From: Octopus sinensis
Lineage: Eukaryota
Reading direction: 5' to 3'
Assembly (NCBI RefSeq): GCF_006345805.1
Contig: NC_043010.1
Location: 6,820,001-6,884,000, forward strand
Length of the DNA: 64,000 nt
Shown in pieces: positions 52,263 to 55,714 of this stretch (positions within the stretch are counted from its first letter, which is position 1; the number at the start of each line of letters is the position of its first letter). The translations under genes and the position numbers were made by a program. Below the pieces are notes generated by a model, which saw only the letters and a program-made list of their open reading frames with translations, searched no databases and was not told the origin of the DNA.

Positions 52263-52477
52263 GGTGGCGAGCTGGCAAAATGCTTAGCGGTATTTCGTCT
52301 GCGTTACGTTGTGAGTTCGAATTCCGCCGAGGTCGACTTTGCCTTTCATCCCTTCGGGGTCGATAAATTAAGTACCAGTTACGCACTGGGGTCGATGTAA
52401 TCGACTTAATACCTATGTCTGTCCTTGTTTGTCCCCTGTGTGTTTAGCCCCTTGTGGGTAGTAAAGAAATAGGTATT
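52263..52477 (+). mobile_element. Family C SINE, single-unit form of the 10912 element
   Basis: ggcgagctggca..gtcgactttgcctttcatcc..agccccttgtgggtagtaaagaaataggtatt. Confidence 0.9.
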
Positions 52478-52913
52478 TTTTTACAGTTCATTTGTTGTGG
52501 GTGATTGTTAATGACCACAGCTGGATTTACCAACAGTTCAAGATGTCTGGTAAGAAGTTATTACGTGGTACTGAAGGTAGTGGTGTGAAAAGGAACCATA
52601 AAAGGATTAGGCTGAATATTAAACTTGATACTTTAAAAAGGTTTGATGCAGGAGAAAAAAAAATCAGCCACATTGCAACGCCTGCTTGTGGAACATCATC
52701 ATCATCATCATCATCATCGTTTAGCAATATTCAACAATATTCAACAATAGAGTGGAAATTAAGTAAAGTGCTCAAGAAGTTACTCTGCTAACTTCTTGGA
52801 CTTCAATTTTTCATATATATATGATGCTGAAAATAGGTTAGCTCTTTATTAAGGATCAGATTTGATATATTGTGGCAATAAGCGCTAATTAAAACACCAA
52901 ACTTTGTATAATG

Positions 52914-53315
52914 TTGTTATATTTTGGGATGGTCATTTCTTTTCTTTCTTTTTTTTTTTGCAAATAAACACACACACTTCAGCTTTATTACTGTTCTTAT
53001 TCTTGTATCCTTAGTCTTAAATCTTTCCTCACACATCCTGTGACCTCTTCAGTGACTCTTCATCTCATGTGTCTCCTCTTGTTCTATTTAGTCCATAAGA
53101 ATGGACTCAAGAGGTCACAGGATGTGTGACAAAAGATTTAAGATAAATGTCACAAAAATAAGGACAAGAATAAAGCTAAAGTGAAGAAAAAATATATAAT
53201 GCATATATTTATTTGGCAAAAACAAAACAAATGACTGTCCCGAAAAATAACAATATCTGTTTCAACACACAATTTCATATAAGGAATCTTGCAAAACAAA
53301 TACATAAACGTTAAG
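52914..53315. mobile_element. Fold-back insertion 1 (Penelope-like inverted pLTR) with hammerhead-like core
   Basis: Inverted arms; TSD tttgtat(a/g)atg at 52903-52913 and 53316-53326; tail caatatctgtt..caacacac..atcttgcaaaac shared with insertion 2. Confidence 0.75.
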
Positions 53316-53780
53316 TTTGTATGATGATTATCAGAAAAAGGAAATTTTAATGAAAATTATTTTCTGACTAGCAGTCTGATTTGAATAGCACTTAAATTAC
53401 ATATACAACATAAAAATCACTGGTGAAACTGCTACTGTTTATTCAAAGGTTACAATTAATCATCCTGAGCAGCTGAAGAAATGATTGCTAGAGGGGGGCT
53501 ATACATCAGAACAAGTATACAACATTGATGAAACTGCATTTTCAGTGAAGCTTGTTAGAACTTTTATTCTTTGAGTATAAAATTCAACATCCATATTTGA
53601 AGTATCCAAAAATTATCTGACAATTCTATGTCGAAATGCAGCATATAATAGAAAATTAAAGCCCTTTCTTGTGTATCTCTCTAAAAATCCGAGGGCTTTA
53701 AAGGGTTACACAAAGTTCAAGTTGCCTCTGATTTGGTGTTCACATAAGAAGGTATGGATAACTAAGAGTCTTCCCAGAAA

Positions 53781-54121
53781 GTGGTTCCGGGTTCAGTCCC
53801 ACTGCGTGGCATCATGGGCAAGTGTCTTCTGCTATAGCCCCGGGCCGACCAATGCCTTGTGAGTGGATTTGGTAGACGGAAACTGAAAGAAGCCTGTCGT
53901 ATATATGTATGTGCGTGTGTTTGTCCCCCTAGCATTGCTTGACAACCGATGCTGGTGTGTTTATGTGTCCATCACTTAGCAGTTCGGCAAAAAGAGACTG
54001 ATAGAATAAGTACTGGGCTTACAAAGAATAAGTCCCGGAGTCGATTTGCTCGACTAAAGGCAGTGCTCCAGCATGGCCGCAGTCAAATGACTGAAACAAG
54101 TAAAAGAGTAAAAGAGTAAAA
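53781..54121 (+). mobile_element. Family A SINE inside the Tigger fossil
   Basis: tggttccgggttcagtccc...gtaaaagagtaaaa. Confidence 0.92.
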
Positions 54122-54228
54122 GTGTACTGTAGAAAGATATAGTACCAGACAAAATATTCCTAACAAAACATTGCTAGTTTAAGACAAAGGACTAAACCAC
54201 CCAGAGAACTTAAATGTACTTTATGATA

Positions 54229-54657
54229 TTACGTTTTGCAAGATTTTTGATGTGAAATCGTGTGTTGGAACAGATATTGTTGTATTTAGGAATGGTCATT
54301 TTGCCAGTTTAGCCAATAAAAAACACACGCACTATATATTTGGTGTTACTTTGCTTCAGCGTTATTTATTTTTTACATTAATCTTAATCTTATTTCGGCC
54401 AGAGTTCTTTCGTCACACTCCTGTGACCGCATCACTTTCTTCTTTCTTATTTGTTATTTGTGTGTCTCACAAATAAGACAGAAGAAAGCAAAGGACCACT
54501 GATGCGGTCACAGGAGTGTGATGAAAGAACTCTGGCCGAAATAAAATTAAGATTAATGTAAAAAATAAATAACACTGAGGCAAAGTAACACCAAATATAT
54601 AGTGCGTGTGTTTTTTATTGGCTAAACTGGTAAAATGACCATTCTGAAATACAAAAA
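54229..54657. mobile_element. Fold-back insertion 2 (Penelope-like inverted pLTR) with hammerhead-like core
   Basis: ~155-bp arms (54275-54433 and 54500-54659); perfect 12-bp TSD tactttatgata at 54217-54228 and 54658-54669. Confidence 0.85.
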
Positions 54658-55714
54658 TACTTTATGATAATGTTAGAATAAAATTTATCTTTGAGAATAG
54701 AACTGGTTTGCTGCAGCCAATGGATCAAGGCATGATAACTAACTTCAGCATAAGAGATGCTGAGGATAACATAGCTGATGCATGAGTTGAAATATAATCC
54801 TCAACTATAAATAATGCTCGGAAAAACATGTGGCCAGACTGTATCCATGATTATGCAAGTTTTCCATGAGTAGAAAGCCTACATCAAAGTCAAAAAAATA
54901 TTGTGATACTTGCAGATGACGGTGGGTTTGAAAAACTCACTGAGAATAATGTAGTTGAGTTGCTGGTGTCCCATAGATTAAGCTTATCTAATGAGGAGCT
55001 GATGTTCTCAGAATAAGAGCCAACTGGGAATACAGATGAGAGTATGGCAATTCTACCAAGTCCTCTTAAACTGACTACAAAGAACTGAAGGGGTTGTCAC
55101 TTATAGAGAGGAAGGTCTGCAAGTTTTTGCCGATAACAACCTTAATTGTGCGCATCACATAAAAATTACTCGAGGAATTTACAATGAGCTCAGTTCCTAC
55201 ACTGAGCTATACAGATAAAATTATGCTCCATAAACATCAAAGAATTTTGGATAAGTTCTTTGCATCTCAAATAGATGCTGCTGCTGCTGCTGCTAAACTA
55301 TAAGGTCAACGATAGTTTTCCTCCATTCTTCTATTGACTCTCATTCCACCACCAACAACCCTCACTCTGTTGTGGACATTTTTTATGCTAAAAATGTACC
55401 CTATTACTATATTACGATTCTTATTTATTCCCTAACGTATTTCTCTTCAAATGTTTTTTTATGTACACACATTGTACAGTGTATATTTGGAAATTGTTAT
55501 TTTCATGCATAAAGTTGTCATGCCATTATCTTTTTCTTTTTTCTTTTTTTGGTTACTTTATTTTTTTTTTTTACATCAGTAGAATATGCATTATCACTTT
55601 ATAACATGAAAATCAATGGAAAAGTTAATTTTATGTTATGGGATTTCACTTGCAGAAAATTTTTCTGGAGAGCATTATTCCCGTATTGCAGGAGATTCCC
55701 ATTTCCATGAAAAC

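What the first reader, a model, noticed from the sequence alone, without database searches (positions are those of the whole stretch)
52903..54669. Family of self-complementary fold-back insertions with hammerhead-like cores and long TSDs
Seen: two ~400-430-bp insertions split Tigger coding motifs (SLYDD and VLYD|NV) with 11-12-bp TSDs. Each is a long hairpin with a one-sided tail, and the tail (caatatctgtt.caacacac.atttca.at...atcttgcaaaac) is shared in opposite orientations. The inner end of each arm carries CUGA(A/U)G(A/C)-G-GUCAC(A)-loop-(U)GUGAC-GAAA. Insertion 1 minus arm reads AGUCA-CUGAAGA-g-GUCACA..UGUGAg-GAAA-GAUUUA-AGACU. Insertion 2 plus arm reads GGACCA-CUGAUGc-g-GUCAC..GUGAU-GAAA-GAACUC-UGGCC. 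Both allow stem I pairing and an NUH triplet. Established: Penelope-like elements carry minimal hammerheads in their pLTRs, form inverted pLTR arrangements and have 3' tails. Inference: a non-coding, retrozyme-like or PLE-derived hairpin family with an atypical core (extra base after position 9; A9C in both arms of insertion 2).
Basis: partly seen in the sequence, partly recalled or inferred. Interest (0 to 1): 0.7.

Follow-up and report, generated by a model that had tools for sequence, protein, structure and literature searches.

The report
Truncated Penelope retrotransposon hairpins in octopus
The two hairpin insertions are short, back-to-back end pieces of two abundant octopus Penelope-type jumping genes whose long protein-coding versions lie elsewhere in the same genome; the layout and the small ribozyme-like motif are known, and the new points are a likely weakened ribozyme core in the younger family and an unusual insert in its reverse transcriptase.

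Summary
Both insertions are real: 402 and 429 bp, target duplications of 11 bp (one mismatch) and 12 bp, long inverted arms and a one-sided tail of about 59 nt, inside a decayed Tigger/pogo transposase gene. They are not a separate non-coding family. Each arm is the 3' end (pLTR) of a Penelope-like retroelement (PLE). The same end flanks a telomerase-like RT plus GIY-YIG ORF in this genome, and inverted units run from 257 to 5,885 bp. The two insertions come from two sister families. The extra base after position 9 is the published norm for animal PLE hammerheads. Only 1 of the 4 window arms fits a minimal hammerhead descriptor, and the fold-back buries the motif. A9C is real and family-wide in the younger family (104 of 124 arms); the older family keeps A9. 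The RT carries about 70 extra residues at the IFD position, reported absent from C-terminal-endonuclease PLEs, plus an Asn-rich stretch. No cleavage or expression was tested. The scan reported the same kind of octopus PLE stump before on other DNA.

The parts
52903..52913 (.). Left copy of the target-site duplication of insertion 1 (11 bp)
52914..53096 (-). Insertion 1, inverted pLTR copy without tail (older family 1); inner boundary approximate
53013..53057 (-). Minimal hammerhead-like motif, A9 plus extra G; C11.1 changed to G, A-A mismatch at the base of stem I
53097..53253 (+). Insertion 1, second pLTR copy; motif at 53106-53145 is decayed (G5C, G12A, stem I 5' strand deleted); inner boundary approximate
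53254..53315 (+). Tail of insertion 1; with the arm end it encodes the first ~27 codons of the PLE ORF
53316..53326 (.). Right copy of the target-site duplication of insertion 1 (one mismatch)
53581..53781 (+). Tigger/pogo-type DDE transposase relic (the target sequence)
   Evidence: Pfam DDE_1 E 2.9e-8
54217..54228 (.). Left copy of the target-site duplication of insertion 2 (12 bp)
54229..54276 (-). Tail of insertion 2 (about 12 nt shorter than the family's 59-nt tail)
54277..54468 (-). Insertion 2, tail-bearing pLTR copy (younger family 2); 91% identical with tail to the end of full-length element L055
54397..54435 (-). Hammerhead-like motif with C9; C3 changed to G and stem I 5' strand deleted
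54468..54657 (+). Insertion 2, inverted pLTR copy without tail; 95% identical to the L055 pLTR
54493..54537 (+). Best-preserved minimal hammerhead-like motif (C9, extra G, 6-bp stem II, CUC triplet, predicted cut after 54532)
54658..54669 (.). Right copy of the target-site duplication of insertion 2
54660..54782 (+). Continuation of the Tigger/pogo DDE relic after insertion 2
   Evidence: Pfam DDE_1 E 0.07, collinear

Best explanation
Both insertions are severely 5'-truncated copies of endonuclease-bearing Penelope-like retroelements, each made of the element's 3' end (pLTR with a minimal hammerhead-like motif) joined head-to-head to an inverted copy of itself, and they were likely written into a dead Tigger gene by target-primed reverse transcription. 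[quoted passage not shown] Inferred from PLE literature: the GIY-YIG domain nicks AT-rich DNA, staggered nicks give the 11-12-bp duplications, RT starts at two sites inside the ORF 5' region so that one end carries a tail, and self-priming or a template switch makes the inverted copy. Inferred for these copies: they are inert; on either strand the antisense arm is transcribed before the hammerhead and pairs with it, so cleavage is unlikely. The C9 core of the younger family is most likely a weakened or relaxed hammerhead that did not stop the family from spreading.
For: Family size: 2,517 and 4,105 first-look candidates, 40 scored each. Full-length pLTR-ORF-pLTR elements of ~4.75 kb with direct pLTRs: L055, L058; window arms are 91-95% identical to the L055 ends. 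Open frames up to 1,044 and 1,120 aa between inverted pLTRs. Model pLDDT 77; top 12 VIA rows are telomerase RTs (Z 15.8-13.9); I-TevI GIY-YIG domain Z 10.2, rmsd 2.0 over 88 of 92 residues at the C-terminus. 50 inverted units in 49 loci span 257-5,885 bp, tail at one end in 48 of 50, 32 of 50 in TA-rich flanks. Family 1: RT/EN remnants in 14 of 30 loci (13 places), same strand and upstream in 9. 5 of 24 related metagenome loci have a sense-strand minimal hammerhead within 1.5 kb after the ORF, 0 of 24 antisense, 0.05 expected. Same layout in PMC3846280, PMC8557442, PMC4209133.
Against: Pfam RVT_1 (E 4e-4, 2e-3) and GIY-YIG (E 3e-3) scores are below the curated cut-offs, and 5 of 6 and 3 of 5 proteins got neither. 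No fully intact element was seen. A duplication of 11 bp or more was called in only 9 of 18 non-TA units (the caller also missed the window's own 12-mer). The first 30 family-1 loci had no ORF remnant within 1.5 kb. Within family 2 the core is hardly better kept than the rest (0.977 vs 0.959), as expected for neutral decay, so copies give no sign of selection. 19 of 24 metagenome loci had no descriptor hit, and a looser scan gave core-plus-stem II hits on the antisense strand in 3 of 16 loci. Isolated motifs do not fold into the hammerhead shape as minimum-energy structure.
Confidence: 0.95

Rival explanations
1. A non-autonomous, non-coding retrozyme-like family that is copied as its own short hairpin unit by PLE enzymes.
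For: Many units cluster at 427-453 bp (16 of the 18 best hits to insertion 2; the other 2 are miscalled by tail extension); thousands of short copies; PLE ends can mobilise sequence in trans (PMC3846280); retrozymes are proposed PLE derivatives (bioRxiv 10.64898/2026.07.22.740005).
Against: That cluster is what a 429-bp query selects; inversion junctions differ between copies and lengths are continuous up to 5.9 kb; arms run on into 3' UTR and GIY-YIG sequence; no head-to-tail tandem units were seen; retrozymes are tandem, not inverted.
Confidence: 0.04
2. A MITE or Foldback-type DNA transposon with long terminal inverted repeats (Mutator-like, 9-11-bp duplications).
For: Long inverted arms, 11-12-bp duplications, no coding capacity in the window.
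Against: Ends are asymmetric (tail at one end in 48 of 50), duplications vary in length, and the internal sequence of long copies is RT plus GIY-YIG, not a DDE transposase.
Confidence: 0.005
3. Host-used double-stranded RNA or ribozyme devices (small-RNA source, editing substrate, regulated cleavage).
For: Very stable hairpins.
Against: 3 of 4 motifs in the window are decayed; the insertions lie in a dead transposon among other repeats; nothing points to conservation of these loci.
Confidence: 0.01

Closest known systems
Insertion units of endonuclease-positive Penelope-like elements (Adineta vaga Pen2a and others, PMC3846280; Fig. 2 of PMC8557442)
   Same: pLTR plus adjacent inverted 5'-truncated copy, optional tail at one end, pLTR and tail encode the ORF start, variable duplications (8-10 bp there), (TA)n bias.
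   Different: Tail is about 59 nt, against 30-40 nt reported; duplications here are mostly 11-16 bp.
[quoted passage not shown]
   Same: Short stem I, long stem II with G10.1-C11.1, unpaired base between 9 and 10.1, 1-2-bp stem III, pairs of motifs on opposite strands 100-700 bp apart.
   Different: Family 2 has C at position 9; all 44 rows that I saw in their Fig. S3 have A9 (their search pattern required it). The extra base is G (consensus there H; G in 1 of 44 rows). Loop III of family 2 (AA) is not palindromic.
Nematis and Neptune clades of C-terminal-endonuclease PLEs (PMC8557442)
   Same: RT then CX4CxxC linker then GIY-YIG with CCHH residues; 7 residues between CxxC and the next Cys, as in the Nematis rows of Fig. 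S2 (Neptune about 25).
   Different: RT motif A-to-B spacing is 128 residues against about 57-60 in the Penelope, Nematis and Neptune rows of Fig. S1 (hand count), 81 in a Naiad and 115 in human TERT; the paper says canonical C-terminal-EN PLEs have no IFD. No tree with reference PLEs was possible.
Asn-rich Penelope ORFs of Adineta vaga (PMC3846280)
   Same: A long in-frame Asn-rich stretch (258 aa, 33% Asn in L125; 25-30% there).
   Different: Here it lies N-terminal to the RT core; there between RT and thumb or RT and EN.
Animal non-LTR retrozymes (bioRxiv 10.64898/2026.07.22.740005)
   Same: Short, ORF-less, type I hammerhead, PLE-related.
   Different: Retrozymes are head-to-tail tandems; these units are head-to-head inverted stumps continuous with a coding element.

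Membership tests
Endonuclease-positive Penelope-like elements | ORF with telomerase-like RT | tested here: met
   Top 12 VIA rows are telomerase RTs; YVDD motif; RVT_1 below cut-off
Endonuclease-positive Penelope-like elements | C-terminal GIY-YIG endonuclease with CCHH residues | tested here: met
   I-TevI Z 10.2, rmsd 2.0, 88 of 92 residues; Cys, His, Arg, Glu, Asn columns nearly invariant
Endonuclease-positive Penelope-like elements | pLTRs, direct or inverted, with 5' truncation | tested here: met
   Direct in L055 and L058; 50 inverted units of 257-5,885 bp
Endonuclease-positive Penelope-like elements | Tail at one end, overlapping the ORF start | tested here: met
   48 of 50 units; same N-terminal peptide in both families; 59 nt, longer than the 30-40 reported
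Endonuclease-positive Penelope-like elements | Variable target duplications, AT/(TA)n bias | tested here: met
   11-21 bp in 9 of 18 non-TA units; 32 of 50 in TA-rich flanks
Metazoan PLE minimal hammerhead | CUGANGA-N / GAAA core with stems I and II and NUH | tested here: met
   Family 1 majority CUGAAGA-G; stems differ yet pair across relatives, with C3-G8 to U3-A8 covariation
Metazoan PLE minimal hammerhead | A at position 9 | tested here: not met
   Family 2: C 104, A 16, T 3, G 1 of 124 arms; met in family 1 (29 of 33; 22 of 23)
Metazoan PLE minimal hammerhead | Self-cleavage (as dimer or protein-assisted) | not testable with these tools
   No raw RNA reads were offered
Nematis clade | Reduced CX2-5CxxC linker before the endonuclease | tested here: met
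   7-residue spacing against Fig. S2 rows
Canonical C-terminal-EN clades (Penelope/Poseidon, Neptune, Nematis, Hydra) | No insertion between RT motifs A and B (no IFD) | tested here: not met
   Spacing 126-131 in all 20 of 33 proteins that my pattern parsed against 57-60 in published rows (hand count)
Nematis or Neptune clade | Placement in an RT tree with reference PLEs | not testable with these tools
   No reference PLE set could be brought into a tool
Hydra clade | No CCHH motif, CxCX5C linker, under 3 kb | tested here: not met
   CCHH and CX4CxxC present, about 4.75 kb
Naiad/Chlamys | N-terminal endonuclease | tested here: not met
   Endonuclease is C-terminal
Non-LTR retrozymes | Head-to-tail tandem non-coding monomers | tested here: not met
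   Head-to-head units that continue into coding sequence
MITE / Foldback DNA transposon | Symmetric termini and fixed duplication length | tested here: not met

The most novel reading that the evidence does not exclude
The parent elements belong to an unnamed lineage of C-terminal-endonuclease PLEs, shared with other organisms in metagenome data, that carries a telomerase-sized insertion in the RT fingers, and whose most successful octopus family spread with a C9 hammerhead core that is either dead (a natural case of PLE mobility without ribozyme cleavage) or an active core type that fixed-pattern searches have missed.
Probability: 0.3. Interest if true: 0.55.

Novelty: new variant of a known kind. 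Interest (0 to 1): 0.32.

Why it matters
The hairpins themselves are routine PLE insertion products and matter mainly for repeat annotation: they look like MITEs or miRNA hairpins. Two side results bear on open questions. The role of the PLE hammerhead is unsettled (not needed for insertion in vitro, PMC11167929; possibly a passenger, PMC8557442). Sister families that differ at A9/C9, with both states inside family 2, give a ready natural pair for a cleavage test. An IFD-position insert in a C-terminal-endonuclease PLE would weaken the IFD as a marker of Naiad/Chlamys and telomerase and may point to an unnamed clade.

Tried and rejected
Rfam scan at E<=5: no hammerhead family hit. Folding the four isolated motifs: none gives the three-way junction as minimum-energy structure; uninformative for minimal hammerheads. 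Conservation of core against flanks among family-2 copies: no clear excess. Between the two family majority sequences, stem II plus GAAA is 20 of 21 identical and the core 6 of 8, but the tail is also 51 of 59, so two families do not settle selection. Sequencing runs: no RNA holder listed on record; contigs of four runs show A at position 9 at 11, 16, 60 (3 contigs) and 13% of depth and the same A>G sites in all four, so nothing on editing, expression or cleavage. PDB sequence search gave only a weak bacterial RT hit. First guess of Neptune clade dropped after seeing the short linker. Hydra clade checked and rejected. Literature: 'hammerhead + A9C + core' gave 0 papers; 'cephalopod + hammerhead ribozyme + Penelope' gave only PMC8557442; two searches for an IFD-bearing or new C-terminal clade gave only the three papers cited; the motif RKDHK is absent from the PMC8557442 supplement. 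Lunse et al. 2017 on PLE hammerhead variants is not held and Repbase/Dfam could not be searched, so neither A9C nor the lineage is shown to be unpublished. One supplementary file of PMC4209133 was not searchable, and I saw part 2 of 3 of the other.

Full report
Observation. The window holds two insertions with the sizes and duplications given: 52914-53315 between 11-mers that differ at one base, and 54229-54657 between identical 12-mers. Each is a long hairpin (-147.7 and -277.6 kcal/mol; 0 of 100 shuffles fold as well) with an unpaired extension at one end; the extensions are homologous and point in opposite directions. The target is a decayed Tigger/pogo-type transposase gene (Pfam DDE_1, E 2.9e-8 at 53581-53781; weak collinear piece after insertion 2). 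The hammerhead-like motif is present in all four arms but damaged in three; one of four passes a minimal-hammerhead descriptor. Rfam gives no hammerhead hit.

Copies. A search of the own genome gave 2,517 first-look candidates for insertion 2 (40 scored; full-length matches 85-92% identical) and 4,105 for insertion 1 (40 scored; best other full-length match 74%). Insertion 1 thus belongs to an older family (family 1) and insertion 2 to a younger one (family 2). The closest named protein relative of the family-2 ORF is an Octopus vulgaris predicted protein at 89% identity, so the genome is an octopus.

The parent element. In half-length hits the arm continues inward to different lengths through a shared 3' UTR and, in L049, into the end of a GIY-YIG domain. 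Using that piece as query, I fetched 39 of the 46 matches. L055 and L058 are pLTR-ORF-pLTR elements of about 4.75 kb with direct repeats, both broken by stops or frameshifts. A protein search gave 6,644 candidates, 136 scored; 20 places with long open frames were fetched; open frames reach 1,044 aa (L120) and 1,120 aa (L125). Pfam scores are weak and below cut-off (RVT_1 E 4e-4 and 2e-3, GIY-YIG E 3e-3), but the predicted structure (12 sequences, pLDDT 77) matches telomerase RTs in the top 12 VIA rows (Z 15.8-13.9) and the I-TevI GIY-YIG domain at its C-terminus (Z 10.2, rmsd 2.0, 88 of 92 residues); Foldseek interleaves telomerase and group II intron RTs. The window arms of insertion 2 are 91-95% identical to the ends of L055. 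For family 1, the first 30 loci had no ORF remnant within 1.5 kb, but a query from its upstream part gave RT/EN remnants in 14 of 30 loci (13 places; 38-67% identity to the family-2 protein), on the same strand and upstream in 9. Both families begin the same ORF in the last bases of the pLTR and run it through the tail.

Anatomy of insertions. Among family-2 loci (duplicates removed) 50 head-to-head units in 49 loci span 257-5,885 bp; 48 of 50 have the 59-nt tail at one end only, at either end; 32 of 50 lie in TA-rich flanks; of the other 18, 9 show duplications of 11-21 bp, and the caller missed the window's own 12-mer because that tail is shortened. This is the layout described for PLEs: an inverted 5'-truncated copy next to the pLTR, an optional 30-40-bp tail, variable duplications (PMC8557442, passages, introduction and supplement part 54; PMC3846280, passages, where pLTR and tail also encode the ORF start). 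Frangieh et al. (PMC11167929, main text parts 1-2) tie the tail to two internal RT start sites, show AT-rich cleavage, and find the hammerhead protein-assisted and not needed for insertion in vitro.

The hammerhead. Cervera and De la Pena (PMC4209133, main text parts 1-2 and supplement part 2 of 3) describe the unpaired base between 9 and 10.1 as conserved in metazoan PLE hammerheads, pairs of motifs on opposite strands 100-700 bp apart, and low activity only as dimers. So the extra base and the two-strand arrangement are known. That the motif is a real structured element in this lineage is supported by relatives: of 24 metagenome loci chosen from 51 because the match reached the C-terminal part, 5 have a sense-strand hit within 1.5 kb after the ORF, none on the antisense strand, 0.05 expected from resampled sequence; all five have the extra base and G10.1, different but pairing stem II sequences, and four have the U3-A8 swap. 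A sixth (L141) fits by eye with U15.1-A16.1. A looser scan without the stem I test also gave antisense hits in 3 of 16 loci. Position 9: family 1 has A in 29 of 33 and 22 of 23 parsed arms; family 2 has C in 104, A in 16, T in 3 and G in 1 of 124 arms, and both arms are C in 34 of 40 two-arm loci; all 17 of the 20 long-ORF loci with a detected motif have C9, and 12 of 98 arms also have U17. My queries came from C9 copies, which may inflate these shares; contigs of three large runs show A at 11-16% of depth. The closest metagenome relative with a hit (L140, 46% identity, one copy) also has C9. All 44 published rows that I saw have A9, but by construction of that search. That changes at A9 usually lower activity is recalled knowledge; PMC3088659 (passages) says only that most core changes are strongly damaging and that rare variants stay active.

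How it works. Shown: coding parent, truncation series, one-sided tail, variable duplications. Inferred from the cited work: nicking of AT-rich DNA, target-primed reverse transcription from internal start sites, early termination, and self-priming or a template switch that adds the inverted copy. Inferred here: since the arms are head-to-head, a transcript of either strand makes the antisense arm first, and the hammerhead is fully paired in the fold; these two copies are most likely inert.

What differs from described elements. The RT has 126-131 residues between the motif A aspartate and the glutamine before motif B in all 20 of 33 proteins that my pattern parsed, against 57-60 for the Penelope, Nematis and Neptune rows, 81 for a Naiad and 115 for human TERT (hand counts on Fig. 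S1); the paper states that canonical C-terminal-EN PLEs lack this insertion. I did not test whether the insert folds like the telomerase IFD. The linker is short as in Nematis. A 258-aa stretch with 33% Asn lies before the RT, recalling the Adineta elements. An O. vulgaris repeat annotation lists recently active Penelope families but does not mention hammerheads (PMC13282606, passages). The retrozyme preprint was read in part 1 of 5 and review PMC6765202 in passages. Repbase, Dfam and Lunse et al. 2017 could not be consulted.

Verdict. A known kind of insertion from two sister octopus PLE families; modest interest from the family-wide A9C core and the RT insert. Earlier scan notes report the same kind of stump on other octopus DNA; look-ups by this sequence, by the ORF protein, by place and by the A9C/IFD words found nothing.

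Noticed in passing
L120:2185-5316 (+), L125:1504-4863 (-), P0001-P0022: About 70 extra residues between RT motifs A and B (IFD position) in a C-terminal-endonuclease PLE lineage, shared with proteins at 31-47% identity.
   Followed up: partly
L125:1504-4863 (-), L055, L058, L054: In-frame Asn/Ser/Gly-rich stretch of about 260 aa (33% Asn) before the RT; relatives have 60-78 residues (169 in P0012) between the same motifs against 318.
   Followed up: partly
L140:2489-2535: Metagenome relative (46% identity) with a U3-A8 core that also has C9 and an extra G; single copy.
   Followed up: partly
L141, about 125-170 bases after the ORF: Hammerhead-like motif with U15.1-A16.1, seen by eye.
   Followed up: no
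L144:5138 and L146:3957 (antisense): Core-plus-stem II match on the antisense strand just after the ORF, also with C9; stem I not tested; unexplained.
   Followed up: no
window about 52265-52475 and about 53780-54125: Two further repeat insertions, SINE-like by appearance (the second ends in short tandem units), at or in the same Tigger relic.
   Followed up: no
L120, L122-L126, L132, L136, L137: A subfamily with long open frames has U17 as well as C9.
   Followed up: partly
family 1 loci L095, L100, L107, L112, L193, L194, L198, L214, L215: A one-base longer variant after GAAA that would restore the closing pair of stem I with cleavage after C.
   Followed up: no
L031, L034, L040, L046: Units with unequal arms, or a single arm with a duplication and no inversion, that show where the inversion switch falls.
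   Followed up: no
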